NCBI GenBank assembly: GCA_000165425.1
Contig: CT868069.1
Span: forward strand, 119,748-139,747
DNA from: Paramecium tetraurelia
Lineage: Eukaryota
Length of the DNA stretch: 20,000 nt
Direction of reading: 5' to 3'
Positions 1 to 20,000 of the stretch are shown here, one piece after another; position 1 is the first letter of the stretch, and each line of letters begins with the position of its first letter. The notes below the pieces were generated by a model that saw only the letters and a program-made list of their open reading frames with translations, was not told where the DNA came from and did not search any database. The translations under genes were made by a program, and so were the position numbers.

Positions 1-1546
1 AATAGGTTGAGTTAATAGTACAAAGGATTAGAAATAGATTAGTATCAAGAGGAGCTCGAGGATTTATTTCCTTGTATAGAGTGGCAAAGATTTTGGACGC
101 TGATTAAGATGGAATGCTCAATTTATCAGAATTCAGAAGAGCTATCAGAGATCATAAAATAGAAGTTACAGATCCAGAGATAGATTTAGTATTCTAATAT
201 TTTGACAGAGATGTTTCAGGATTAATTGATATATGGGGGTTCATGTTTGTGTTGAGAGGTGAGATGAGTGAATAGAGAATCTAATTAGTGGAATCATTAT
301 TTGAAAAATACAGGCAAGGAGACTACGTAACTATTTCGAATCTAAGGAATAATTTCACTGTTAGAAATCATCCAGATTTAAAAAGCGGAAAAAAGAGTGA
401 TGATGAAATCATTTAGGATTTCTTTGAACCTTTACAATAATTGCATAATATCAATGGAGGTTTTGGAAATGAAAATATTAGTAAGGATGAACTCATAGAA
501 TATTTTAGCAATTTCAGTGCTTCTGTCCCTGATGATAAATATTTTGAATAAATTCTTGTTACTGTATTCAGAATATAAGCTGAATAACAAAAAACACATC
601 ATGCTGGCAATAAATAAGTCTTTGAACCAGATCATAAGCGAAGTTACCTACAAGATCATCATCGATATGTTGTTCAGGGTGGAAGTGTATCTGCCAATGC
701 TCCTTTTGGCACATTTACCCAATAAGAACAAGTTTAATAGTAAAGACCTGCTTCAGGATTTGAATAACCAGCTTCTTTCAACATCTTCAAGCCACTTTAA
801 GATAATCCTTCAAAATCTAATGTCTAATTAGCTAATTCTTAATTGTCGCAATAATCACAATAAAATTAATAATAATAATTTCATTATTAAATTGATTAGA
901 CTCCTAAGTAGTAGAAATAAAAAATTGATAGTTTTTAGATTTTGAAAAACAAGATTTTGTAAAGAGGAATAAGAGGATTGATTAATATTTAACAAAGATT
1001 TAGAGTGTTTGATAAGTAAGGAGTGGGATCCTTAGCCTTGAATGATTGGTTAAACAGCTTTAAGTCTTGGAGATTGGACTTGAATGACTAGGTAATTTAG
1101 GACGTGTTCCATTAACAGTAAGTCAATGGGATGATTATTTATGACAATTTTGTTAAATAACTCTAAGGTACTATGAGTCTTAGGAAATTCAACATTCTAT
1201 AATAGGTATTTGAATCTTTACCTAAATAAAACGTTGAGATTGTGAAAAGTATGATATGAAAATATAATTAGGTTCTTTTAATTCCAAGGAGCATCCAGAT
1301 GTTAAATTAAATAGAAGAAGGGAAGATGATGTTCTTTGTGAATTTATTGATACATTCGAATAGCATCATTAAATATATGTAAGATATATATTAATTTTGT
1401 AGACTGGAACAGACTATTTGAAAAATCCAAATGTCACATTTGAAGAATTTATCAATTATTATAATAACTTGAGTGTTTTAATAGAAGATGATACTTAATT
1501 TGAATAATTCTTAGGAGCAGTCTGGAATCTTAGAAAAAGATTATGA
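1..1546 (+). CDS. Calcyphosin-like multi-EF-hand Ca2+-binding protein (5' end outside window)
   Basis: Frame from nt 3 with TAA/TAG=Gln: QVELIVQRIRNRLVSRGARGFISLYRVAKILDADQDGMLNLSEFRRA...FDRDVSGLID...NHPDLKSGKK...YFSNFSASVPDDKYF. A Q-rich linker follows, then a second module (LKNKILQRGIRG...FDKQGVGSL...EHPDVKLNRR...YYNNLSVLIEDDTQFEQFLGAVWNL). Introns 1249-1271 (23 nt) and 1379-1402 (24 nt); TGA at 1544-1546. RGxRG, HPD and SxxDDxxF are calcyphosin-family hallmarks. Confidence 0.88.
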
Positions 1547-1637: not shown

Positions 1638-4172
1638 ATGAGATTAAATGATTTAACTGAATCAAGGAAGATGTTAAAACAGTTGAAAGAAAAGGATGTT
1701 CGACCGCCTAGATCATATAGCGACTTTTCAAAATCTCCAAGATAATTGCAATTGGATACAATATAATTATATTCATGGGGTATGATAGTCGAATAATAGT
1801 CTAGGTTTAAATAATTGTGGGCAATTATTGAAAACAAATAAAAATATAATCCCTCATTATTAAGGAGTACAATTATGTTCTGCAGGCGAAAATCACACTA
1901 TTATAGTGAATAATAAAAATGAAGTAATAGGATTTGGTGATAATCAATTTGGATAGTTGGGATATGAATCTAACACCTAACCTAAATTAACTCCAATATT
2001 TAAAGATTAAAGAATAACAAGCGTAGTTTGTGGGGCAGAACACACATTTATGTTGACGGCTAAAGGAGAAGTGTATTCTTGGGGATTAAATTTGAAAGGC
2101 CAATTAGGATTGGGTTGTTTTGACAACGCTTTGTAGCCTACTCTCGTTTATGGTCTTTTGCCTTTTGGTACAAGCAACAGCAAAGCAAGAGAACAACAGG
2201 TAGGACACAAAAGGATGAAGAGTGCAAATGAAGGAGATTCATCTACTTCCCCAGGCTTGAAGGAAAGATCATCTTCTATTGATAACATAATGGAGCACAT
2301 TGTCATGATGAAGGAAAAGATTAAATAGAAAAGTTCATGCGAAGTATAGTGCTAAATCCTTTTATAAAATGATGAAGCAGTATAGTAAATTACATGTGGA
2401 GCATTGCACACATTAGTTTTAACAAATAAAAACAGAGTCTTTTCCTGCGGGTTTGGAGAATCCTATGCTTTAGGACATCCGGAAAATCAAACCCTTAATG
2501 AATTCAAATAAATATCAAACTTACAACACTTCAAAGTCGATAAAGTTTGTAGTGGATTAGCCCATTCAGGATGCATAGTTGAAGGAGGAAGATCCTTTAT
2601 TTGGGGAGTCTGCAAATCAAATAAAGATCAAATAAAGTTACCATAATAAACTAAAATTGTAGATGAATTAAATAGTTAATAATGTGTTCTAGATATGAAA
2701 ATGGGAGAGATGTTCACCTTATTTCTCACTAGTAAGGGGGAAGTGTACTCTTTGGGAGAGAATATCCAAGGATAATTGGGAATAGAATAGAATTGCACTG
2801 ATATTCCATTGAAAGTGTTAGGTTTGCCCTTAATCTCACAAATTTCAAGCGGGAGAAATCATTGTGTTGCACTATCAGCTGATTACAAATAAATCTATGG
2901 ATGGGGATCCAATATTTATGGTTAATTAACTGGACAACCTAGCGTAAATTGTAAAGGAATTATATCTCCGAAATTGTTATTTACAGTACCTGAAACTTAA
3001 AAGATTGTTTGTGGTAACTTTCATACTTTGTTATTATCATCATCTTTCTTAGAAATCATTTTAGATGATAATGAAAATTCTCATAAGGACTAGGAGAAAT
3101 TAAACGAGGAAGTTGAGAAATGTAAAAATGAGCAAGAAATATTGAAATAATAGAATATTTAATTGTAATTAAAATATGATAGAATGAAGAATGAAATTTT
3201 GTAGAAAAAGAAAGTCAAAGATCAAAAGGTGTAAACAAATGAATCATATATCTAAAGGCAAATTAAAAAATAATAATCAAAATTTGATATTTCTGCTTTA
3301 GAGATCTCACCAGAACGACCAATTAAACATAGAATATTTTAATCAAGTTTAGATATCGATTTTAATGACATAATGCTTGAAAAACAGATAAGTGAAGGTG
3401 GATATGGAGTGATTTATAGAGCTAAATGGAGAGAAACTACAGTTGCTGTAAAAATGTTTAAAATTGATGGAATGAATGAAAATCACATCAGAGATTTCCT
3501 ATCAGAATGTCATGCAATGGAGGCACTAAGACATCCAAATATAGTAATGTTTTTAGGTGCTTGTACAAAACCTCCTAATTTAGCTATTGTTCTTGAATAT
3601 TGTTAGCGAGGTTCTTTATGGTAGGTGATCTAAAATCATGACATTCATTTAACATGGGAGGATCGAAGGAGGATGGCTTTGGATGCAGCTAAAGGGGTAT
3701 TGTATTTACACTCTTTTAATCCTCCCATTTTGCATAGGGATTTAAAAAGTCTCAATTTATTGTTGGATGAAGCTTTTAGAACAAAGTTAGCAGACTTTGG
3801 ATGGACTAGAACTCTATCTAATTATATGACCAGCAAAATAGGGACTTATTAATGGATGGCACCTGAGGTAATCGCAGGATAAATTTACACAGAAAAAGCT
3901 GATGTTTTTAGCTTCGGTATAATATTGTGGGAAATAGCAGCAAGAGAGCCGCCTTATAGAAGTAATAAGTCATTAATATTTTAGATATTACTGGTTTGTA
4001 GGTCTCCTTAGATGTGTTAAATAATGACTTTAGACCCACCATACCAAAAAAAACTCCTGAAGTTTTTGCAAGACTTACTAAGAGGTGTTGGGATAGGGAT
4101 CCAGAAAAGCGTCCATCTTTTAAAGAAATAATTAAGGAACTGGAGATTATGAAATTTCCTCCTGGAATATGA
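1638..4172 (+). CDS. RCC1-repeat domain + coiled coil + tyrosine-kinase-like (TKL, Raf/MAP3K-like) protein kinase, ~828 aa
   Basis: ATG 1638; introns 1780-1804 (25 nt) and 3962-3984 (23 nt); TGA 4170-4172. RCC1 repeats include [52 protein letters not shown] and SGRNHCVAL...[11 protein letters not shown]. Coiled coil at ~3060-3280. Kinase motifs: [52 protein letters not shown]. Confidence 0.93.
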
Positions 4173-8064: not shown

Positions 8065-8991
8065 TCAATTATCAAGGGGTTCGAAAAATCTTCTATTTCC
8101 TGTTTTAGTGGCAACCATTAATTTATCATATTCGTCCATGTGTTCCTCTGTAGGTTAATATATCCATTTAGCCTCAATGTCAACCTCTTATCTACTATCT
8201 TCAGTCAACAAGTGAATCATATATTACTTATAATAGACCATTAACCATTCATCATCTTTTTATCCACTAATCTAAGGCTTCCCATAAGTTCCTGTACCCA
8301 AATGATGAAGTCTTTTTAAATTCATAATTCCTCTCTAATCAGGTTCAGCATCCATTGCTTCATTGCCCAACCGTAAATTCAAGTTCTTGATTTCTTCTTA
8401 TTCTTTTTAGTATTTGATCATAAATCCTTTTACTAATTCCTTACAAACTTTCCAACCATGGTTGCTAGAATACATTGTTCCGACTATACCATACCTTTAA
8501 GGTAATTGTTTTCCATACTCTTCCAAATCATAATGTACAATGTCTTTAATTTAATTGATCTCAATTATTATTATATAAGAGTACTTCCAAAAAAGAAATT
8601 AGCTTGTAAATGTCTAATTATTCATTAGGATCAAATAAAATGTCTCTTTATTACACTAGCTCACCCTACAATCCCCAAACAGTTCCTTTATCAGGCCTAT
8701 CAACAACTTTTTCATAATAAGGATCATCTCCATCAAACAAAACAGTTTCTTTAATTAAATTAATGTCTGGTTTTTTTGAGTCCTTAAGGATTGTGTCTTA
8801 TTCTAATTTTATATCATTGAGACTTCCGATCACATCTGAATAATCATAATATTAATACCATCATCATCGTTTTTATCTTCATAAGCCATAGAAAATTATT
8901 AAGCAGCCTCTGGGGTCTTTTTTAATTTGTTTACTATCCTAACATTTCTTGCCATTGAGTAAATTGATCGAAAATTTACAAACTTATACAT
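8065..8991 (-). CDS. MALSU1: Mitochondrial ribosomal silencing/assembly factor, RsfS/Iojap/MALSU1 family, ~292 aa
   Basis: ATG 8991 (MYKFVNFRSIYSMARNVRIV, basic and presequence-like); introns 8836-8858 and 8560-8584; TGA 8067-8065. Core LDIYKLISFLEINQIKDIVHYDL...YGIVGTMYSSNHGWKVCKELVK...ISGQKDDEWLMVYYKQYMIHLLTEDSRQEVDIEAKW follows the RsfS pattern (DI; SxxH; GxxxxxW; IHL....R...EKLW). Confidence 0.8.
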
Positions 8992-10169: not shown

Positions 10170-13100
10170 TCATTTATATAACACTCGACAGATCGCCGAT
10201 GGATTGATGTTGGAATCCCCTTAATCAAAAATTTGATGATCTGCAAATCTTTTGGGTTACTATTACTTAAAATATTTTTGAAGCCAAGCTTAACCAATTT
10301 TTTTAAAAATTGGCTTTGATAATATGTATATATCTAATATCAGAGTTAGGCTTAAATTACAACTCATAATTCCAATTTAGATCCATCCAAGAGTCACCAA
10401 ATTCTGTGGACTTTTTTGATAAAATTCATGAATCAGATAAATCAGATTCATGAAGACAAAAGTTAAATGCTTAAATTATTTCTTGAAACCCTCCAGTTTT
10501 TCTAATTTATTTCGTTTTAGAAAAAGAAAAGAAAAATAAAATAGTTCATTTATAACACAAAGCTATATTTAAATGATTGGACACTCAAAACATCCTACTA
10601 ATATTACACTAAAAATTATCTTTTAGATACAACTATAAGTATACTAAAATTCACTAAATCTTTAATTCTATTTATTGACTAAATAGAAAATTATTAATAT
10701 TAATAAAATAATTTTGAGCGTCAAACTTATCATTCCTTCTAAATTTTAGTTGTTTTAGTATTGAAATGATAGCATCATGTTTATCACATATTCATATATA
10801 AGAGATTAGAATATTATTTTAAATTATTCGTTAAATTCATTTCCATGATTTTTTTTGCAAATTTTTGCTAATTTCTTCAAAAATTTTAATAAATAAAGTC
10901 TTGACGTTTCATCGTTAAAATTTGTAATATATGTTATGATTTATTTTATAATAATTTAAGAGAAAAGATGGCTGAAATAAGCTAAAAAAATGATGGAGAA
11001 TATTTCTAAAAAAGCACACAAAAAATTTGAGCTCCTTCCATCATCCTCAAAGGAGGATTTTGAATTTTCCTAATTTACATTGAAAATACTTAAGGATTGG
11101 GGTTAAAATCCAATGAATTAGTAAAGGTTTGCTAATTAAATGATTTTAAATGTATCAAAAAATTTTATCAAATTTTATCCTTTGATAATATTAATGTATT
11201 TGTAATAGTATAGCATTTACATCATTTCTATTTAGTTTTCTATGATTTAAAATTTTCCACTTAAAGAAGAGATTAGTACTAATCCAACTATAATTTAAAT
11301 TTGATATTCACTAAATTAAATGAGAGATACAGTAGTTTATTATTCTTCAGCTGATAAAAAATTAGGAGATGCTAGTTATATAGATAATTGCTAACATTCT
11401 TATTCTAACTCTTATTCATTTATGATGATGCTTAGATTCTGAAAAATAAGAAAGAAGACGGGATCAACAACTTTCTCTAAGTACTGAATTTTTATTAAGA
11501 TTTCAAAATATTCTAAATCTTATGATGGTTTAGAATTTGTTTCAATTGTAATGTTTAACTTAATGTTTATGACTGAACCTGATAATGAATTTAAGTATTA
11601 TTCTAATGTACTACCAGGAGATAGTTTTACTTTTTAATCATAAAATAAGATGAGAATTTAGCAATTCTCAATCGATTTAACAAATTTTAATTAAGGGACA
11701 GGATGAAAGATTTAAATACATTCATTTAATTAGCAAAGGCTATTTTTTGAAGGTTAGCAATCAGAATCGCATCCATCCCCATCAATAAAATTACCGTCAT
11801 CGCATAATTCATTTTAATTGATATCTCCATCTCCACACTTACTATGGATTAAATTTTCTTAAATGTTATTATTATTAGCATTAGTATTAGTAATATTAAT
11901 AGCATCTGTTAAATATTGAATGCAAATATTTTTTTCACAAGCGATACAGTTTTGGAAATCGCATTTGTCCTTTGTCTTTGGTTAGCATAATTCATCATAT
12001 AATTCAAAATTATCTAAGCAAACGAGACATTAATTATTTTCGTCTAAAGTCTTACAATTTTTATCTATGATTAATTTACAATTCAAACATTTTCTGGTGT
12101 TTAGTTGATCACATTCTTCATCTGGAGTAGCCATTATTCCATCACCACAAGCACTAAAACAAGATCCGTTCGATTTATCAAAGTAATAACCTTTTTGACA
12201 TGCTGTGCCATCATCTGTACAAACTCCAGCTATACATAATGGGCATATAGGATTACAAGAGTATTTACATTAAAAACAACCATCATATGGATCATCATTA
12301 TCGTCTTCACATTCTTCATAGATAGATTTTACTCCATCTCCACATATGTCGTAACATTAATTAATTAAAACGTTGTAGTAAAGACCATATTCAGGATCAC
12401 ACTTAGATTTTAGAAGGCATTCATTAGTCTATTCAATCAGCATATAATCTTATTCACAATTTTGACACAATCCAAACAAGCATTCAATACACTAATCTTT
12501 ACATTAGAATTGGCAGTTCGAACATATAATATGATTTTCAATTAAATTATGTTCGCACTACTCAAGATCATTAATGTGATTATCTCCACATTTACTCTCA
12601 CATTTAGACCTATTTGCATTTAAATAATAGAAATCATCACAGATAATACAAATTTCATTGATTTAATAGCGGCAATATTATATATAAGCTGAGCTCATAT
12701 AATTTTATTATAAAAGATATTCTTGCGGTGTAATTGAAGTTTTCTTACTGTATTAAATTTCACATATTCCATTTAATAATTTAAATCCTAATTGACAACC
12801 TAAGCATCTTCCTGACTAGCATACTTAACAATTAGAACAGCAATGAAATTAACAAAAATGACAACCATCAAAAGGGGTTATATTTCCATCATCGCAATCT
12901 TCTCCAGAAACAATTAATTCATCTCCACAAATATTTTGGCATTTATTTTCAATTAATCTAAATCCTATTTAACATTATAAACAGCCAGAAATTTGACAAT
13001 TTAAACAACTAGGTTGACAAGATAATTAACAGTTATAACAACCGTCATAAAGTAAAGAATTCATATCTTCACATTTTTCATTTCCAACTTTTACATTATC

Positions 13101-16100
13101 ATTGCAAATTTCTAAGCATTTATTATTTGTATTCAGGTAATAATGATCTATACATTCTAAGCATTTTCCATTCTGGCAAACCTTACAAACGGTAGTTTAA
13201 CATTAATATTTACAACTTGTGCTGCATCCATCATTTGCAACTAAGTTAAAATCATCACATTCTTCTGTATTTCTTCCATATGGATCAACTGCAAGGAACC
13301 CATCCCCACAAATATTAACACAATAATAGCTATAGGGCTAGAATCCAATAACTTAACAATCTAAACAACTCTTTCCATCTGAACTACAAGTTTTGCAATC
13401 ATTTCTGCATAGTCTCTTACACTAATAACAATTATCATTTTCTTCCAGATTATTTCCATCATCACATTCTTCCGATCCTATTACTATTGAATCTCCACAA
13501 TTCTCTACACATTATAAAATGTCAATATTTATAATCCAACCATAAGTTAAACATTCATAGCATAAACCTCTTATGCATCTAGTACATGAGGCTTAACATT
13601 CTAAATTACATTGATAACAACCATCAGATTAGACATTATTGCCATCATCACATTCTTCAAGGCCACTTATGATACCATCTCCACAAATATCTAAGCAAGG
13701 AAAAACTGTTTAAAGATTGCAGGTCTAGCATTATTATGGACACTAAAATTTACAATTTGTACAACCATCATTAATTTTTTAGTTTCCATCTTCACATTCT
13801 TCATCACCTGATAATAATAAATCTCCACATACTGATATACATTAATTTTCAACATTCTAAAAACCTGTCTAACATGCGATTTCATCACAAAGTTAATTAT
13901 GCCATTTAATTATCTGATTACCGCACTTTTTGTAACATTATGATAAGTTTACATCTTCTAATGATGGGCATACTTGACAAAAATTATTAATTTCGTAATA
14001 TCCTAATAAACAAATACATGATAGTCCCTATAACCTTCTGTATTCATTTGGATTGCAACTCAAGCAAGAATTATCAGCTGATGAAAAACAAGTTTAACAT
14101 TTTTTATGGCACAAATTACATATAAAACTAGCATCGTCAAAATAATATCCTTCTTAGCAATTGCAAATATCACCCTTTTTCTCAACTTTTTCTAGCTAAA
14201 TACATTAAGTACACTGATCATTAGTTGATCCATAACATTTTTTACATAATTTACTGCAAACTTGACATTTACCCCCAGTATTATCATCATAATATCCATC
14301 ATAACATATGCATTAATTTAGATACAAATAACGGTATTGCTATTCTTCACAATTGATACATAAATCTTTCTAATTTCTACATTATTTACATTTAAAACTA
14401 CAGTCTAAAATTTTATATATATTTACCTTCGCATAATTATGTTTAGATACTAAAGAATTAATTCACCAAACACATCAATATACATTTGGTAATATATAGT
14501 TTATATGGGTAAAAGCACTAAGTGCATTCATATTCATTAAAACAAGCAACGCATTCTTGAGGGCAGCTCTCACATTTAAAATATTAATAATCGAGATATT
14601 ATTAAGGACCACACTGAGATGGGTCTAATTTAATTATTTAATTATCAAAAGTAGCCATTTAAGTGCAAGTATTTTCATCTAAACATTATAAACAAAATGG
14701 ACTACAATAATGGACAACTATTTAATAATCAGCTAAGGCACAATAACTATCTTTCACATTATTATTTTATCCAACACACTCAAAAGATATTGATAATGAA
14801 GGTAAATATTATGAAATTGTTATTGTTACTGTTTAATTTGAATTCACTTAAGATTATATATTATTAAAAGAGTATTTTAAATAACCTCCACTGCTCTAAA
14901 AATTACTTCCAAAAATTGCATCAAAATAAATTGTTAAAGAATGATGTGGCTTATCTATCGTATATACTTAAGAAAATTTTGCTGTTGCCCAAACATATTG
15001 CCCTCCAAATACTGCTTTTGAAGATATGTATGACCAATATATTAAATCTCCTTTTTAAAAATCTTTGCTAGTTGAGGACTCTAAAATAAAGGTTTCATGT
15101 AAATTTTAAGGAACTGTAAAATCAATAAATAGTCTCATTAAGTATTTTGAATCTAAAAATATACTTAGTGATATACATTTTGTGGTTTAATCATATTTCA
15201 TGCAAACGTTATTTAAAAATAACGAATCTTTAGGGCAACTTAAGACGCATTTTCCATCTGAGACCTTTTTATAGCCATTTTAGCAAATAGAGCATTCATA
15301 TTCTCTTTCACACTTTAAAACAAAATGCAGGACATTAAGCACTTGCAATAATAGAATAAATAATATACCATCCAGAATTAGAATTTCTACATTTAATAAT
15401 ATAATTACGTAAAATTTCCTTTGATTGAAAAATTAAAAATTTCCTTGTTTCTAAANNNNNNNNNNNNNNNNNNNNNNNNNNNNNNNNNNNNNNNNNNNNN
15501 NNNNNNNNNNNNNNNNNNNNNNNNNNNNNNNTTATGGTTTTTGTTTAGTTTGGGGGGTGAATAAGTTAGTGCGCTAAATAGGTTAGGGGGTGATATGGAG
15601 GTAAGGTTAAGCAAAGTACATTGGGTATTTTCATAAGGTTTGGAAAATCTTTTTCTTTTATGTGCGTAGGTTAATAAACAAAAAGTTCAAACATCTATAA
15701 TTTGAAGGTGGTTCACCAGTTAAAATTGTTCTGATAGGACATCGACATGTACCACTAACTAAGCTAACACCTGAAAAGCATGATGTGCATTCATTATAAT
15801 CATCTCCAGTACAAGTTCTACAAGTAGGATGACATAAATAATAAGATAAATGAACATTTTTAATTAAAGCCAAGTTTAATTCATTAACGATCCTGAATTT
15901 TAAATAACTCATAGAAGTGAATTCTTAAAATGCGATTTGAATTGTCTTTACTTCATGTTAACTTGAATTACAGCCTCCTAAACTAAATTACAAAGTATTT
16001 TAAGTGGTAAATTAAAACTAGTAGTTCTAAGTTTTATACTCTATTTTCAAGTAGTCTCCATTCCATTAAGTAAGAAGATATATATCTAAATTTAAAGTGT

Positions 16101-16359: not shown

Positions 16360-17004
16360 ATATATATTACTTTAAAGAAAATTTGATTTCTTTTACCATC
16401 TTTGTCGTCTTACATAAATATTAAGGTTGATTTTTCTACGTAGATTATATTCTATAATAAGTTTTGTAGACTTAAAATACAAAATTACGAATAAAAACTC
16501 AATCATAATTTGGAACTTTATAAATGTTTCAGGAGATTCTTCAATCTTTAAATATATCGTTTTATTTTTCTTCTTGAATTTTCGATATTTTAGATATCAG
16601 TCAATTTTTGATTACTTAAATAAAAAGAGAAAAATTATAGAATAGAAAACCATATCTAGTAAAACATATAATATGGCAAATAAATCATTTATCAACTAAC
16701 TTCCATTTGATATAAAATTAAACTTTCAATATTAAGAAATTATTTAATATAATTTATTTTAATCAGATATTATTATAAAAATAATATTAAGTCATGCATG
16801 ATTGATGAAATGGTAAATTTTCCTAATCGTTCCAAGCAATTGTGATAAACAAATTAAATGACTCATTACAATTAATTGAGTGAAGCTTCTGATTTTAAAT
16901 TTTGGCGTGGATGGCGACTATGAATTTCAGATTTTAAGTCGGAATGTGAAGCCATAATAAATTAAATAATCATAAATATTAATTAATATTTATTTAAGAT
17001 AATT

Positions 17005-19790
17005 ATGTAAAATTTACTTAATCTAAACTATGTTGGCTCTAATAATAAGAGAGAAAAAGTCAAAAGATGTATTATGACTAAAATAAAAAGAAGTAGTTCT
17101 AATGACCTCAAATTAATTCTTTATCCTCTGACTTCAAAAACCGCAAATATTTTATCTTTTAGATAGAAATTTAATTCCAGAAGAAGAAGCACTTCTATTT
17201 CATATTTTACACATGATTAAGAATTAAATAGATAATAAAAGTGTATTCAAATTTAGATCGATAATAAAGAACAATAATAACCTAATGAGGGCGATGGTAA
17301 TTCTAAGCCATCATCAAATAATATAATTACAAACAAATAATGGGATGATCTAAATAATATTTACGAAAGGAGAAAAAACGATGTAAATTTTAGACAATTT
17401 ATATAACATTTTTAGTAGGATGCTCTCTAATTGGAAGCATTATATTATTAGCTTTCTTTTTTAGAGTTCCACCTATCTGCCCCTTTATAACTTCCACCTA
17501 TTTTATGTTACTTTTTATATACTTTAATTATGTATAGAGATGATAAAAGAAAACTTTTTAATCAATTTTCAGACACTTATTTTGGGGATGATTATTATAA
17601 AAAATTAAGAAAATTTCAAGGTAGATATTTTAAATAAAAACTTTAAAATTAATGCATTTCACAAATTTCTTTTTATAATGAACCAGAAGAAGAATCTATT
17701 TTACATGAACTCATGTTTTTCTATTATCTTGATAATTTGATTCCCAACCTTGATCTTGATTATAGTATGCTTTTGGATGATTTTTTATCATACTTTTCAT
17801 TATCAAACATTAAAAAAAATTTCATAGAACTCTCTATGAGAGATGATAATATTTTAAGAAAAAACAATATAGCATTTGGAAATATTAGATTTGTCTTCAA
17901 AAAAAAGGATGGATTGTTCATTGATTTTAAGTAACCAATAGGAAGATTTGAAAATATATAATTTCTTGATTACGTTTAGTTTCAAGCTGATTTTACTCAA
18001 TAAGTATCCTCAGCCGAGCCTATTAAATATTTTAATTCATATCGTTCGGAGCCACATAGCGAAAGGACTATGATTTTGTTTCTTTTGGCTGATATATACC
18101 TAAATTAATCCATATTTCAGCATTTAAAATTAGATTTGATAGATTCTCAACAGATAAATAATATCATAAATCTATCCTAAATCTACTTGGAAATAACTAG
18201 TGAGAAAAGAGTTTGTAAAAATTGTTTAGGCATGTTTTAATAGATTCCAATTGAATTTATTTGCTAGAAATTTCAAGAAACATTTGGATTGGGTGTGGAT
18301 ACAAGATTTTAATTCATAATCACCTAATAGTATTTATTGGATCCAAAAATCTCTACAGAAAAAGAAAGATACCAAAGAATTTGGGTAAGAACAACTTAAA
18401 AAAAATTCAATTCATAATATAAATTCTTAAAAGATTAAAAAAAAAATTCGGAAGACTTTTAAAAGGAAAATTAATAAGAAATTCCACTTCAGCTCATTAT
18501 AGAATAAAATGATTAAAATGATGAAAATGATTGTGAACTCGTGCAAAAACAAGATTTACCTCAATAAGACTCCAAATAATCACATTAATAAGAAGATTTA
18601 ATAAAACAAGAATATTTAATTTGCTACGAAGAGCAAGAACCCACTGGATTAATATCTGTGTTGTTTTTAAAAGAAAGATATTGTAAAAGTTAAGTTTGCA
18701 ATTTTAAAACTAAAATTCCTGATATCAAACTCACAAATACATTTTTTATAAATAATGAATCATAATTTTCAGATACAATTTCCCAAAATAGTTTTAATTA
18801 AGATGAAAACTCGCAATCATCTAAATAAATTAAATATTAGAAATAATAAAATAGATTATTAGATCAGCTGCAAAAAAAATAATATACACTTATACATCAT
18901 ATGAATTTTAAGCACAATAATCCAGAAGAATAGAATCTTCAAAAAACAAAGAAACCTTATACGATATATGAAGATTTATTGTTAGAAATTCAATCTGAGT
19001 TTTACTCTTATTTAATAAGGAAGTTTACATCTGATTTTTAAATGTTTGATACTGAGCTTTTTGAATTAGATAAAATTTTGCAATTATATTGGGAAATAGG
19101 ACTTCTTAAAGGACAATAAAATGGCTTAATGAATATTTTAAAGGAAAAATTAATGCTGAATAGTATTCTTGATTGTGGATAATTTAATTTGAAATTATTT
19201 ATCTAGGATTATTAATTTATAAGTGAATGTAGAACTACATAAATTACAAATGAAATGAAAAGTAATTAATAGAGCAGTAAAACTTCAGCTAACTTTTATA
19301 TATTAAAGTTTTATGGATTGAATGAGTCTGGAGAATTTAAAAGAATTGCTTTATCAATTTAGGGCTAAAGTTGTTACTAATTAATTCAACAATTTGATGA
19401 ATAACTTTAAGAAGAAATAAAAAAATTTAAACGGCTTATAATAATTATTTTATCGATTAACTAGATCAACAATTAATGCACCGAAACAATTTACAACCAC
19501 ATATTAAATTTATAACATCCCAAATTTGAACTCAAACATTATTTTTTTGAACAAAATACAAGGGATCAAACCTAAAAGGAGAGGCACAAATCAACTTCGA
19601 TATCAGAATAATAATTGATTCTTTTAGAAAAAGATTTCTTTTTACATCGATATGCGCTTCAGGATTAAAATTGTTTTTAACCTTTTAAGGAGTTGAGTGA
19701 GAAATTTGATCAAGAGTTGATGAGCTTTGAATGCTAAGTAAATTTAAAAATAATTATTAATAGGTCCATACTTGGAATGTCAATTCATGA
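17005..19790 (+). CDS. Uncharacterised ~920-960 aa protein containing a putative zinc-dependent (cytidine-deaminase-fold) deaminase domain
   Basis: ATG 17005 opens a frame with no TGA until 19891-19893 (962 aa unspliced). A likely 26-nt intron at 19738-19763 would end it at TGA 19788-19790 (919 aa). Contains RKNNIAFGNIRF (from 17857), EPHSERTMILFLL (HSE 18055-18063) and IYLEITSEKRVCKNCLGMF (CxxC 18214-18225). The CDS is well supported; the domain call is inference. Confidence 0.75.
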
Positions 19791-20000
19791 ATCCACCCTT
19801 ATGATATTATAATAAAACATTTTAAAACAGCATCTTAAGAGTTTCTAATTAGTGCAAGCGATTGTACCGATTTGTATACTACTATTCACATGATTACGTT
19901 CTCCTGCCTTTTAAAAGTTGGCTGCAATTGAGTAAATGAAAGAAGAATAGGACTACTTTTTAAAAGGTGGTCTGAAGTGATAGGAGGACGAGAGTTGTTT

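What the first reader, a model, noticed from the sequence alone, without database searches (positions are those of the whole stretch)
17857..18260. Hidden toxin-type Zn deaminase domain (NxAxG / HSE / SEKRVCxxC) in a ~920-aa unassigned ciliate protein
Seen: reading TAA/TAG as Gln reveals, in one frame, RKNNIAFGNIRFVF, then YRSEPHSERTMILFLL (HxE followed by a hydrophobic helix), then 53 residues after the His a beta-strand-like IYLEITSEKRV leading into CKNC and an amphipathic helix (LGMFQQI). Established: HxE...CxxC in this order is the Zn-binding and catalytic signature of the deaminase superfamily (CDA, TadA/ADAT, DYW, AID/APOBEC, polymorphic-toxin deaminases). Inference: the N-terminal NxAx motif and the [ST]ExxxCxxC strand look closer to bacterial toxin deaminases (BURPS668_1122/SsdA-like, pattern LxTExxPCxxC) than to housekeeping CDA/ADAT. 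All three putative Zn ligands and the catalytic Glu are present. This could be an undescribed eukaryotic DNA/RNA deaminase acting in defence, editing or mutagenesis. The supplied ORF track stops at 17934, before the HSE and CxxC motifs.
Basis: partly seen in the sequence, partly recalled or inferred. Interest (0 to 1): 0.85.

Follow-up and report, generated by a model that had tools for sequence, protein, structure and literature searches.

The report
Possible hidden deaminase domain in Paramecium
A 919-residue Paramecium protein of unknown function carries a conserved stretch that looks like the zinc active site and fold of a nucleic-acid deaminase, but the resemblance rests on motifs and moderate-confidence models, not on significant database matches.

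Summary
Under the ciliate code the window holds one open gene, Paramecium tetraurelia GSPATT00037985001 (919 aa, unnamed). It has KNNIAFGNIRFVF, EPHSERT and, 53 residues after the His, LEITSEKRVCKNC.

For a deaminase domain:
- H351, E353, C404 and C407 are invariant in 7 of 7 full-length homologues, all from the P. aurelia complex.
- Two AlphaFold2 models (pLDDT 72 and 64) place HSE at the start of one helix and CxxC at the start of the next.
- The predicted element order matches the published deaminase fold, with helical inserts.
- The best structural neighbours are JAB/MPN domains, which share the deaminase-like fold, and the bacterial toxin deaminase DddB.
- Protein-language-model features point to toxin-deaminase clusters.

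Against:
- Every statistical test is weak.
  - Pfam, NCBIfam, PADLOC and PDB sequence searches give no deaminase hit.
  - hhalign against the PF14424 toxin deaminases gives probability 4% (P 0.011).
  - Structural Z is at most 3.9, and Foldseek finds nothing.
- Membership of the BURPS668_1122/PF14424 clade is not met.

My reading: a divergent, lineage-specific deaminase-superfamily domain, probably a nucleic-acid cytosine deaminase (about 0.5). The main rival is a lineage-specific domain with a structural or coincidental His/Cys site.

The parts
17005..19737 (+). Exon 1 of GSPATT00037985001 (residues 1-911), read with TAA/TAG = Gln
   Evidence: There are 0 in-frame TGA in 911 codons against 16 and 45 in the other frames. 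Stranded oligo-dT RNA reads lie on it at low depth.
19738..19763 (+). 26-nt intron (GT..AG) implied by the annotated 919-aa product
   Evidence: P0002 ends ...ECQVHTWNVNS, while the unspliced frame reads ...ECQVNLKII. Sequence. No spliced read was seen because depth was too low.
19764..19790 (+). Exon 2 (VHTWNVNS plus TGA stop)
17851..18339 (+). Candidate deaminase-like domain, residues 283-445
   Evidence: AF2 secondary-structure order, conservation and ESM Atlas leads.
17860..17901 (+). Block 1, KNNIAFGNIRFVFK (residues 286-299): end of predicted helix-1 into strand-1; 12 of 14 columns invariant
   Evidence: It resembles the N[IVM][AG] start of strand 1 in the PF14424 toxins.
17884..17937 (+). 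Predicted strand-1/strand-2 hairpin (residues 294-311). It contains the TAA (17932-17934, Gln310) where a standard-code ORF stops.
   Evidence: T17932C (TAA to CAA) is seen in RNA and DNA-like runs.
17971..18039 (+). [quoted passage not shown]
   Evidence: AF2 helices at 323-334 and 338-345. DddB has a helical insert at the same position (PMC13346905, passages). [quoted passage not shown]
18049..18069 (+). EPHSERT (residues 349-355): candidate Zn-ligand His351 and catalytic Glu353 at the N-terminus of predicted helix-2 (351-365)
   Evidence: Invariant in 7 of 7. Helix start.
18112..18165 (+). Second helical insert between helix-2 and strand-3 (residues 370-387). It accounts for the long His-to-Cys spacing.
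   Evidence: hhalign treats it as an insertion relative to PF00383.
18172..18225 (+). Predicted strand-3 and LEITSEKRVCKNC (residues 390-407). Candidate Zn ligands Cys404 and Cys407 (nt 18214-18225) sit at the start of predicted helix-3.
   Evidence: hhalign aligns it with L.TER.PC.SC of PF14424.
18226..18327 (+). Rest of helix-3 (to 411), a further helix (416-427, with Cys420 conserved in 6 of 6) and predicted strand-4 (433-441, FQFII)

Best explanation
Residues about 283-445 of the P. tetraurelia protein GSPATT00037985001 form a very divergent member of the deaminase superfamily.

Inferred mechanism:
- Glu353 shuttles the proton.
- The conserved loops (KNNIAxGN, PIGxF, LEITxExR) line the base-binding pocket.
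- Two helical inserts, one before the His and one after helix-2, probably grip the substrate.

The motif style and the insert before the His resemble bacterial toxin deaminases. The protein has no signal peptide. I therefore think the most likely substrate is cytosine in DNA or RNA inside the cell. The gene family is confined to the P. aurelia species complex in the databases searched, evolves fast and decays often.

Shown: the motifs, their invariance, the gene model, low-level transcription and the predicted secondary-structure order.

Inferred: the fold, zinc binding, catalysis, the substrate and any origin from a bacterial toxin.
For: (1) H351, E353, C404 and C407 are invariant in 7 of 7 full-length homologues that are 43-56% identical overall. 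The partial P0009 keeps all four. H351 is one of 2 invariant His of 16.

(2) Two AF2 runs give pLDDT 72/pTM 0.76 and pLDDT 64/pTM 0.66.
- Both give the order helix, strand, strand, [helices], helix starting at H351/S352, [helices], strand, helix starting at K405 just after C404, helix, strand.
- That is the helix-1, strand-1, strand-2, helix-2, strand-3, helix-3, strand-4 order described in PMC3239186 section 7. [quoted passage not shown]

(3) In an all-against-48161-chain structural search, both models have JAB/MPN-type entries on top (Rpn11 Z 3.9, RadC Z 3.7). PMC3239186 places that superfamily in the deaminase-like fold.
- The toxin deaminase DddB is at rank 21 (Z 2.7) and rank 12 (Z 3.3, 89 of 108 residues).
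- Among Foldseek's top 1000 chains re-aligned, DddB is rank 1.

(4) ESM Atlas, residues 240-460: the named feature neighbours are toxin-deaminase clusters (PF14424 0.87, MafB19, OTT_1508, SCP1.201 and others). The Atlas model's nearest structural clusters are a Pput_2613-like deaminase and cytidine deaminase. These are leads only.

(5) Invariant columns concentrate in four blocks (43 of 63, against 19 of 108 elsewhere in the domain). The blocks fall on the helix-1/strand-1 junction, the loop after strand-2, the helix-2 N-terminus and the strand-3/helix-3 loop. PMC3239186 names these elements as the walls of the substrate pocket.

(6) hhalign against 89 natural PF14424 sequences gives a collinear alignment. 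NNIAFGNI pairs with NIA.AEI, and LEITSEKRVCKNC pairs with L.TER.PC.SC. P = 0.011, score 20.8.
- 0 of 100 column shuffles reach that score.
- The positive control, PF14424 against PF00383, reaches only P 0.005 and probability 7% in the same set-up.

(7) DddB has a helical insert after strand-2 immediately before its zinc His (PMC13346905, passages). The Paramecium helices 323-345 sit at the same place.

(8) The gene is transcribed on the + strand at low level in three oligo-dT RNA runs.
Against: - No deaminase family appears in any profile-to-sequence search.
  - These were Pfam on the whole protein and on 10 domain sequences at E<=10, NCBIfam and PADLOC, and PDB sequences by phmmer and by profile.
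- The profile of the domain finds nothing in five bacterial genomes that carry PF14424 toxins, even at E<=10.
- hhalign probabilities are 0.6-4%. 5 of 100 block shuffles reach the real score, so the signal is mostly the local TE...CxxC block.
- hhalign puts the toxins' DSE on D363-I-Y, not on HSE.
- Foldseek gives no match at E<=0.001.
- All VIA Z scores are at most 3.9. That is below the tool's stated typical best chance level of 7-8, and JAB/MPN rank above true deaminases.
- In AF2 run 1 the other four models had pLDDT 48.6-59.7.
- The His-to-Cys spacing of 53 is about twice that of DddB (26; PMC13346905) and of the toxins fetched (32).
- One fragmentary paralogue (P0016, P. pentaurelia) reads EQPSERA, with Pro in place of the His.
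- Cys420 is conserved in 6 of 6 and could complete a structural Cys3His site.
- The Atlas structural search of the C-terminal half also returned deaminase-like rows at low TM, so such rows may be unspecific.
- I could not inspect coordinates to see whether H, C and C are adjacent.
Confidence: 0.5

Rival explanations
1. A lineage-specific alpha/beta domain that is not a deaminase. The conserved His and cysteines (H351, C404, C407, perhaps C420) form a structural zinc site or none at all. The HxE...CxxC order is then a coincidence that the first reader and the language model both latched onto.
For: - The bare pattern occurs in 349 of 20000 shuffles, so hundreds of chance cases are expected in a proteome.
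- No profile hit was found.
- hhalign probability is at most 4%, and 5 of 100 block shuffles reach the score.
- Z is at most 3.9 and Foldseek is empty.
- Cys420 is conserved in 6 of 6 as a possible fourth ligand.
- The His-to-Cys spacing of 53 is unusual.
- Deaminase-like structural rows also appear for the unrelated C-terminal half.
Against: - Invariance of the Glu two residues after the His has no role in a purely structural site.
- Both motifs sit at helix N-termini in the right element order in two AF2 runs.
- The top structural neighbours are consistently of one fold class, JAB/MPN plus DddB, in both models rather than a random mix.
- The conserved blocks map onto the pocket-lining loops of that fold (PMC3239186).
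Confidence: 0.3
2. A deaminase-like (or JAB-like) fold that has lost catalysis. It would serve as a nucleic-acid- or protein-binding module within a larger scaffold, as proposed for the inactive Perkinsus BURPS668_1122-like proteins and for inactive tandem deaminase domains.
For: - The fold-level hints are the same as for the main explanation.
- JAB/MPN pseudo-enzymes (Rpn8, CSN6, Npl4) are among the top rows.
- PMC3239186 (section 16 passage) describes apparently inactive eukaryotic deaminase homologues.
- The protein is long (919 aa), with other conserved regions of unknown role.
Against: - All four catalytic-type residues are invariant in every intact copy. That is not expected after loss of catalysis.
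- The JAMM residues (HxH at the end of strand-3) are absent. The window protein's only His residues in 280-450 are H351 and H373.
Confidence: 0.12
3. A deaminase-fold enzyme acting on a small molecule or free nucleotide (salvage-type), not on nucleic acid.
For: The Atlas structural rows include cytidine deaminase clusters. The superfamily contains many nucleotide and base deaminases (PMC3239186, Table 1).
Against: - No similarity to PF00383 was found (hhalign probability 0.26%; Pfam).
- The family is restricted to one species complex, fast-evolving and often pseudogenised. That is unlike a housekeeping enzyme.
- The domain sits inside a 919-aa protein and has helical inserts like the DNA-gripping one of DddB (PMC13346905).
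Confidence: 0.08

Closest known systems
Deaminase superfamily (CDA-like fold; Iyer, Zhang, Rogozin and Aravind 2011, PMC3239186)
   Same: - HxE followed by CxxC.
- The His is predicted at the N-terminus of one helix and the Cys pair at the start of the next.
- The predicted element order is helix, hairpin, helix, strand, helix, strand.
- The conserved loops lie where the substrate pocket lies.
   Different: - There is no significant sequence or profile match to any member family.
- The His-to-Cys spacing is 53 because of an extra helical insert after helix-2.
- Fold similarity is only Z<=3.9.
PF14424 Toxin-deaminase / BURPS668_1122 clade of bacterial polymorphic toxins
   Same: - An N-[IVM]-[AG] start to strand-1.
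- L.TE...C..C leading into helix-3, followed by a hydrophobic-QQ-hydrophobic helix.
[quoted passage not shown]
- It is the top named ESM feature neighbour, at 0.87.
   Different: - The clade signature RxxDxExK in helix-2 and CxxCxS in helix-3 (PMC3239186, Table 1; visible) is not present. Paramecium has EPHSERT and C[KS]xC[LV]x.
- The Pfam model does not hit.
- The Paramecium protein is an intracellular 919-aa eukaryotic protein, not a C-terminal cassette of a secreted toxin.
DddB (BaDTF3) double-stranded-DNA cytosine deaminase toxin, PDB 9k3e (PMC13346905, passages read)
   Same: - It is the best-scoring solved deaminase for both models (Z 2.7 and 3.3; 78 and 89 residues aligned).
- Its zinc is held by His plus CxxC, with Glu two residues after the His.
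- It has a helical insert after strand-2 immediately before the His.
   Different: - The Z scores are at noise level.
- DddB's His-to-Cys spacing is 26, against 53 here.
- DddB has HTE, while Paramecium has HSE.
- No sequence similarity was detected.
JAB/MPN (JAMM) domains: Rpn11, CSN5, BRCC36, RadC
   Same: They are the top structural neighbours of both AF2 models (Z 3.5-3.9, 94-121 residues aligned). PMC3239186 counts them in the deaminase-like fold, with a strand-4/strand-5 hairpin.
   Different: The JAMM catalytic residues are absent (Glu in strand-1, HxH at the end of strand-3, Asp in helix-3). The conserved residues are instead of the deaminase type.

Membership tests
Deaminase superfamily | [HC]xE with the His/Cys at the N-terminus of helix-2 and the Glu two residues later | tested here: met
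   HSE is at 351-353 and invariant in 7 of 7. The AF2 helix starts at 351/352 in both runs. The helix placement is predicted, not observed.
Deaminase superfamily | [quoted passage not shown] | tested here: met
   C404 and C407 are invariant in 7 of 7. The predicted strand 390-397/399 is followed by a helix from 405. This is predicted only.
Deaminase superfamily | Core fold: helix-1, strand-1/2 hairpin, helix-2, strand-3, helix-3, strand-4, sheet order 2-1-3-4 | tested here: inconclusive
   The secondary-structure order fits. The best structural matches are of the deaminase-like fold, but only at Z 2.7-3.9. Foldseek gives none. Sheet order could not be read because no coordinates are returned.
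Deaminase superfamily | Significant sequence or profile similarity to a recognised member family | tested here: not met
   - Pfam, NCBIfam, PADLOC and PDB searches gave no deaminase hit at E<=10.
- hhalign probability is 4% against PF14424 and 0.26% against PF00383.
- The true pair PF14424 against PF00383 scored only 7% in the same set-up, so the test is insensitive.
Deaminase superfamily | Bound zinc and hydrolytic deamination | not testable with these tools
   This needs protein chemistry.
PF14424 / BURPS668_1122 clade | RxxDxExK in helix-2 (PMC3239186, Table 1) | tested here: not met
   Paramecium has EPHSERT. At the position hhalign pairs with DSE it has D363-I-[YEF], where D363 is invariant but residue 365 reads Y, E, E, Y, E, F, E across the seven sequences.
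PF14424 / BURPS668_1122 clade | CxxCxS in helix-3 | tested here: not met
   The window protein has CKNCLG and the family consensus is CSxCVx.
PF14424 / BURPS668_1122 clade | [quoted passage not shown] | tested here: met
   About 40 residues with predicted helices 323-334 and 338-345.
PF14424 / BURPS668_1122 clade | Score above the Pfam gathering threshold | tested here: not met
   There is no PF14424 row for the whole protein or for any of 10 domain sequences at E<=10.
JAB/MPN (JAMM) metallopeptidases | HxH at the end of strand-3, Asp in helix-3, Glu in strand-1 | tested here: not met
   There is no HxH anywhere in residues 280-450. The only His residues there are H351 and H373.
JAB/MPN (JAMM) metallopeptidases | Fold similarity | tested here: inconclusive
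   These are the top rows in both searches, but with Z 3.5-3.9 and rmsd 3.8-4.7 over 94-121 residues.
DYW-like deaminases | [quoted passage not shown] | tested here: inconclusive
   HSER, with Arg354 invariant, is similar in kind. No PF14432 hit was found. No DYW sequences could be fetched for a profile comparison.

The most novel reading that the evidence does not exclude
A previously unrecognised, ciliate-specific clade of active nucleic-acid cytosine deaminases. It would derive from a bacterial toxin or endosymbiont effector domain and be domesticated in the Paramecium aurelia complex as an intracellular mutator or editor. Possible targets are transposon-derived germline DNA, invading nucleic acids or endosymbionts, or specific RNAs. 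Its rapid divergence and repeated pseudogenisation would reflect a genetic conflict or the cost of carrying a mutator.
Probability: 0.2. Interest if true: 0.8.

Novelty: new variant of a known kind. Interest (0 to 1): 0.55.

Why it matters
If it is active, this would be the first toxin-type nucleic-acid deaminase described in a ciliate. I found none in the papers searched:
- Searches returned no such paper.
- PMC3239186 has 0 mentions of ciliate, Paramecium or Tetrahymena.

Ciliates carry out massive programmed DNA elimination and RNA-guided genome surveillance, so a DNA or RNA deaminase there would be a new player to test. Divergent toxin-derived deaminases have also been useful as base-editing tools (DddA, SsdA and DddB, per PMC13346905 and the PMC12494967 abstract). 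A family with unusual helical inserts could have a new substrate preference.

It also shows a class of domain that HMM libraries miss and that standard-code ORF calling hides.

Tried and rejected
- **Own genome:** none is held, so paralogues came only from protein databases.
- **Profile libraries:**
  - Pfam on the whole protein gave only Lectin_C at E 2.5.
  - Pfam on 10 domain sequences at E<=10 gave 5 unrelated families, one member each.
  - NCBIfam gave 5 unrelated families, one member each.
  - PADLOC gave none.
- **PDB sequence searches:** 0 hits by phmmer and by profile at E<=10.
- **Exhaustive profile search of 1.84 billion representatives:** 11 hits, all Paramecium aurelia-complex proteins. 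No relative was found outside them.
- **DNA-level search for relatives:** 297 pattern matches in prokaryote genomes and 505 in metagenomes; none was confirmed by tblastn.
- **Domain profile against five genomes with PF14424 toxins:** 0 matches at E<=10.
- **Foldseek against PDB:** best E 1.2 for model 1 and 0.058 (a de novo design) for model 2; no deaminase among the rows shown.
- **hhalign self-comparison of the full-length alignment:** no internal repeat. A second, degenerate deaminase-like domain in the C-terminal half, hinted at, has no sequence support.
- **ESM Atlas features for residues 530-919:** no usable hit.
- **RNA runs:** no RNA holder is listed in the index. Raw reads of three 2026 oligo-dT runs were laid instead. 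No read spanned the 3' intron.
- **Literature:** the gene id occurs in 0 papers.
- **Earlier findings of this scan:** nothing by place, sequence or words.
- **Membership of the BURPS668_1122 clade:** rejected on its own signatures.
- **An active JAB peptidase:** rejected for lack of HxH.
- **Supplements:** I did not open any paper's supplementary files. The supplementary alignments of PMC3239186 might list ciliate sequences that I could not see.
Full report
**What is there**

The window is AT-rich (GC 0.22-0.35) macronuclear DNA of Paramecium tetraurelia. The protein read from 17005 under the ciliate code is 100% identical to a 919-aa 'unnamed protein product (macronuclear)' of that species. 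Its identifiers are GSPATT00037985001 and UniProt A0CFH9.

The frame from 17005 is open for 962 codons under table 6. The annotated product removes a 26-nt GT..AG intron (19738-19763) and ends at TGA 19788-19790.

Exon 1 has no TGA in 911 in-frame codons, against 16 and 45 in the other two frames. It uses 58 TAA and 15 TAG as sense codons.

Three stranded oligo-dT RNA-seq runs place 48, 29 and 32 reads on 16700-20000. Inside the gene, all of them have the orientation expected for a + strand RNA, at depths mostly under 4. The gene is therefore transcribed at low level in those samples.

The same runs and a DNA-like run read C at 17932, changing TAA to CAA. That strain difference is synonymous only if TAA means Gln.

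**The observation**

All quoted peptides are present at the stated places:
- KNNIAFGNIRFVF (286-298)
- EPHSERT (349-355)
- LEITSEKRVCKNC (395-407)

His351 and Cys404 are 53 residues apart.

The pattern alone is weak. HxE followed within 20-80 residues by CxxC appears in 349 of 20000 shuffles of this protein.

Conservation is what lifts it above chance:
- The family alignment has 7 full-length proteins from P. tetraurelia, primaurelia, octaurelia, pentaurelia and sonneborni, 43-56% identical to the window protein.
- H351, E353, C404 and C407 are invariant in all 7.
- Only 2 of 16 His and 6 of 17 Cys are invariant in the whole protein.
- Four short blocks hold 43 of 63 invariant columns: 286-299, 308-326, 349-363 and 393-407.
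- The rest of residues 280-450 has 19 of 108 invariant columns, and the protein outside it has 121 of 748.

**Who has it**

A profile of the full-length alignment, run by HMMER over 1.84 billion representative proteins, found 11 proteins at E<=0.001. All 11 are named as P. aurelia-complex proteins. Pattern scans of prokaryote genomes and of metagenomes found no relative.

Several hits are pieces of broken or mis-modelled copies. Their coverage of P0002 is:
- P. octaurelia P0010, P0014 and P0011 cover residues 5-343, 410-610 and 639-919.
- P. tetraurelia P0013 and P0015 cover 102-324 and 408-868.
- P. pentaurelia P0016 and P0017 cover 240-375 and 410-654.

In all three copies the missing piece includes the CxxC, and in two also the HSE.

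The tail of P0010 (FHIVLNPIVKGL) matches the +1 frame of the window across the HSE region (IHIVRSHIAKGL, then a stop). That copy therefore carries a frameshift or an assembly error just upstream of the motif.

P0016 reads EQPSERA where the others read EPHSERT. This is the only sequence in which the His is replaced, and it belongs to a split gene model.

The family looks young, fast-evolving and prone to decay. I could not fetch the DNA of these copies.

**Is it a deaminase domain? Sequence tests**

No library sees one:
- Pfam on the whole protein gives only Lectin_C at E 2.5.
- Pfam on ten domain sequences at E<=10 gives five unrelated families, one member each.
- NCBIfam and PADLOC give nothing relevant.
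- PDB sequences give 0 hits by phmmer and by profile.

Five of the 401 had a match above the Pfam cut-off. I then collected their relatives.

These toxins read, for example, GNMGIAQIDI ... RAVDSEAKIL ... INLLTERAPCSSCSNIIQQF, and PRNIAFAEIKT ... ATTMAPCDSCSVVMKQF.

hhalign results:

| Comparison | Probability | P | Score |
|---|---|---|---|
| Paramecium domain vs 89 PF14424 sequences | 4.0% | 0.011 | 20.8 |
| Smaller set-ups of the same comparison | 0.6-2.3% | – | – |
| Paramecium domain vs 13 PF00383 housekeeping deaminases | 0.26% | 0.23 | 13.3 |
| Positive control: PF14424 vs PF00383 | 7% | 0.005 | 26.2 |

- The PF14424 alignment is collinear. KNNIAFGNI pairs with NIA.AEI, and LEITSEKRVCKNC pairs with L.TER.PC.SC.
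- It places the toxins' DSE on D363-I-Y rather than on HSE. Residue 365 is not conserved (it reads Y, E, E, Y, E, F, E across the seven sequences).
- Against PF00383, HSE pairs with HAE and CKNC with PCxxC.
- The positive control reaches only 7%, so this small-profile test cannot settle the matter either way.
- As a null, 0 of 100 column shuffles but 5 of 100 block shuffles of the toxin profile reach the real score. Most of the signal is the local TE...CxxC block.

**Structure tests**

AF2 on residues 240-460 with 10 aligned sequences gave pLDDT 72 and pTM 0.76. The other four models were much lower, at 48.6-59.7. AF2 on residues 280-451 gave pLDDT 64 and pTM 0.66, with all five models between 57.8 and 64.4.

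Both give the same order of elements, in protein numbering:
1. A helix ending at about 292.
2. Strands 294-300 and 305-311.
3. Helices 323-345.
4. A helix 351/352-365 that begins at the His.
5. Helices 370-387.
6. A strand 390-399.
7. A helix 405-411 that begins right after C404, with C407 in its first turn.
8. A helix 416-427.
9. A strand about 433-441.

This is the order that PMC3239186 (section 7, read) gives for the deaminase fold, with the metal ligands at the positions it describes. [quoted passage not shown]

Fold comparison is weak:
- Foldseek finds nothing at E<=0.001.
- An exhaustive alignment to 48161 PDB representatives gives no Z>=5.
- In both models the top rows are entries of JAB/MPN-containing complexes and RadC. 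Examples are Rpn11 at Z 3.9, with 112 and 103 residues aligned, and RadC at Z 3.3 and 3.7.
- The toxin deaminase DddB sits at rank 21 (Z 2.7) and rank 12 (Z 3.3; 89 of 108 residues; rmsd 4.5).
- That the aligned chains are the MPN subunits is my reading of the entry titles.
- Re-aligning Foldseek's top 1000 chains puts DddB first.

PMC3239186 counts JAB domains in the deaminase-like fold. The neighbours are therefore consistent in kind, but they lie below the tool's stated chance level.

DddB's paper (PMC13346905, passages) describes zinc held by His1993, Cys2019 and Cys2022, with Glu1995 two residues after the His. It also describes a helical insert after strand-2 just before the His that grips DNA. 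The Paramecium insert 323-345 sits at the same place.

I could not inspect coordinates, so the adjacency of H351, C404 and C407 is untested.

**Language-model leads**

For residues 240-460 the named feature neighbours are toxin-deaminase clusters:
- PF14424 at 0.87.
- Then MafB19, MsddA-like, OTT_1508, SCP1.201, XOO_2897 and SsdA_C.

The Atlas's own low-confidence model is nearest to a Pput_2613-like deaminase (TM 0.57 by row) and to cytidine deaminase (0.52).

The tool warns that scores under 0.9 are leads only. The C-terminal half also returned deaminase-like structural rows at low TM. This either hints at a second, degenerate domain or shows that such rows are unspecific. hhalign finds no internal repeat.

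**Reading**

The most economical account is a highly divergent deaminase-superfamily domain with an intact HxE/CxxC site (confidence about 0.5).

I favour a nucleic-acid cytosine substrate for these reasons:
- The motif style and the insert resemble toxin deaminases.
- The protein is long and has no N-terminal hydrophobic signal.
- The family behaves like a conflict gene rather than a salvage enzyme.

These steps are inference.

The main rival (0.3) is a lineage-specific domain whose His and Cys residues, with the conserved Cys420, bind structural zinc or nothing. Smaller rivals are an inactive deaminase-like binding module (0.12) and a small-molecule deaminase (0.08).

Membership of the BURPS668_1122/PF14424 clade fails on that clade's own signatures. 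The claim is 'works like a toxin-type deaminase', not 'is a member of that clade'.

**Novelty and score**

I found no description of this gene or of a toxin-type deaminase in ciliates:
- The searches returned none.
- PMC3239186 does not mention ciliates.
- PMC3482391 and PMC3417536 mention ciliates only in other contexts.

If it is real, this is a new, very divergent clade of a known superfamily. I rate it as a new variant of a known kind, with interest 0.55. It is a plausible and testable enzyme in an organism where a DNA or RNA deaminase would be biologically interesting. Every statistical test here is short of significance.

Noticed in passing
window 17932: T>C in 3 of 3 and 1 of 1 RNA reads of two runs, and in the contigs of a DNA-like run. 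It changes the in-frame TAA (Gln310) to CAA (Gln). This strain polymorphism is synonymous only under the ciliate code.
   Followed up: partly
relatives P0010/P0014/P0011 (P. octaurelia), P0013/P0015 and P0012 (P. tetraurelia), P0016/P0017 (P. pentaurelia), P0009 (P. primaurelia): Four loci of the family are annotated in pieces or truncated. In three of them the piece missing between gene models is the one that holds the CxxC, and in two also the HSE. P0010's tail is the +1 frame of the HSE region. Whether these are real frameshifts (decay of a costly enzyme) or assembly errors could not be checked without their DNA.
   Followed up: partly
window 19030-19737 (residues about 675-911): The ESM Atlas model of the C-terminal part has low-TM structural neighbours that again include toxin-deaminase, SNAD3, APOBEC1, cytidine deaminase and RadC clusters. 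It has no HxE/CxxC and no internal repeat by hhalign. This may be a second, inactive deaminase-like domain, or noise.
   Followed up: partly
window 18262-18264 (Cys420): A further cysteine 13 residues after the CxxC is conserved in 6 of 6 homologues that have the position. It could be a fourth metal ligand.
   Followed up: no
window 3-1256 (+), 2050-4149 (+), 8068-8817 (-), 10173-13064 (-): The neighbouring open frames under table 6 are an EF-hand protein, an RCC1-repeat plus protein-kinase fusion, an RsfS-like protein and a 964-aa Cys-rich DUF4215 protein. None has an evident link to the finding.
   Followed up: partly
window 15456-15531: A run of 76 N (assembly gap) lies inside an open frame on the - strand.
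   Followed up: no
window 17620-17646, 17841-17856, 18106-18153: Short contigs of a DNA-like run carry clustered differences from the window (table 3). They may be another strain or a diverged paralogue.
   Followed up: no
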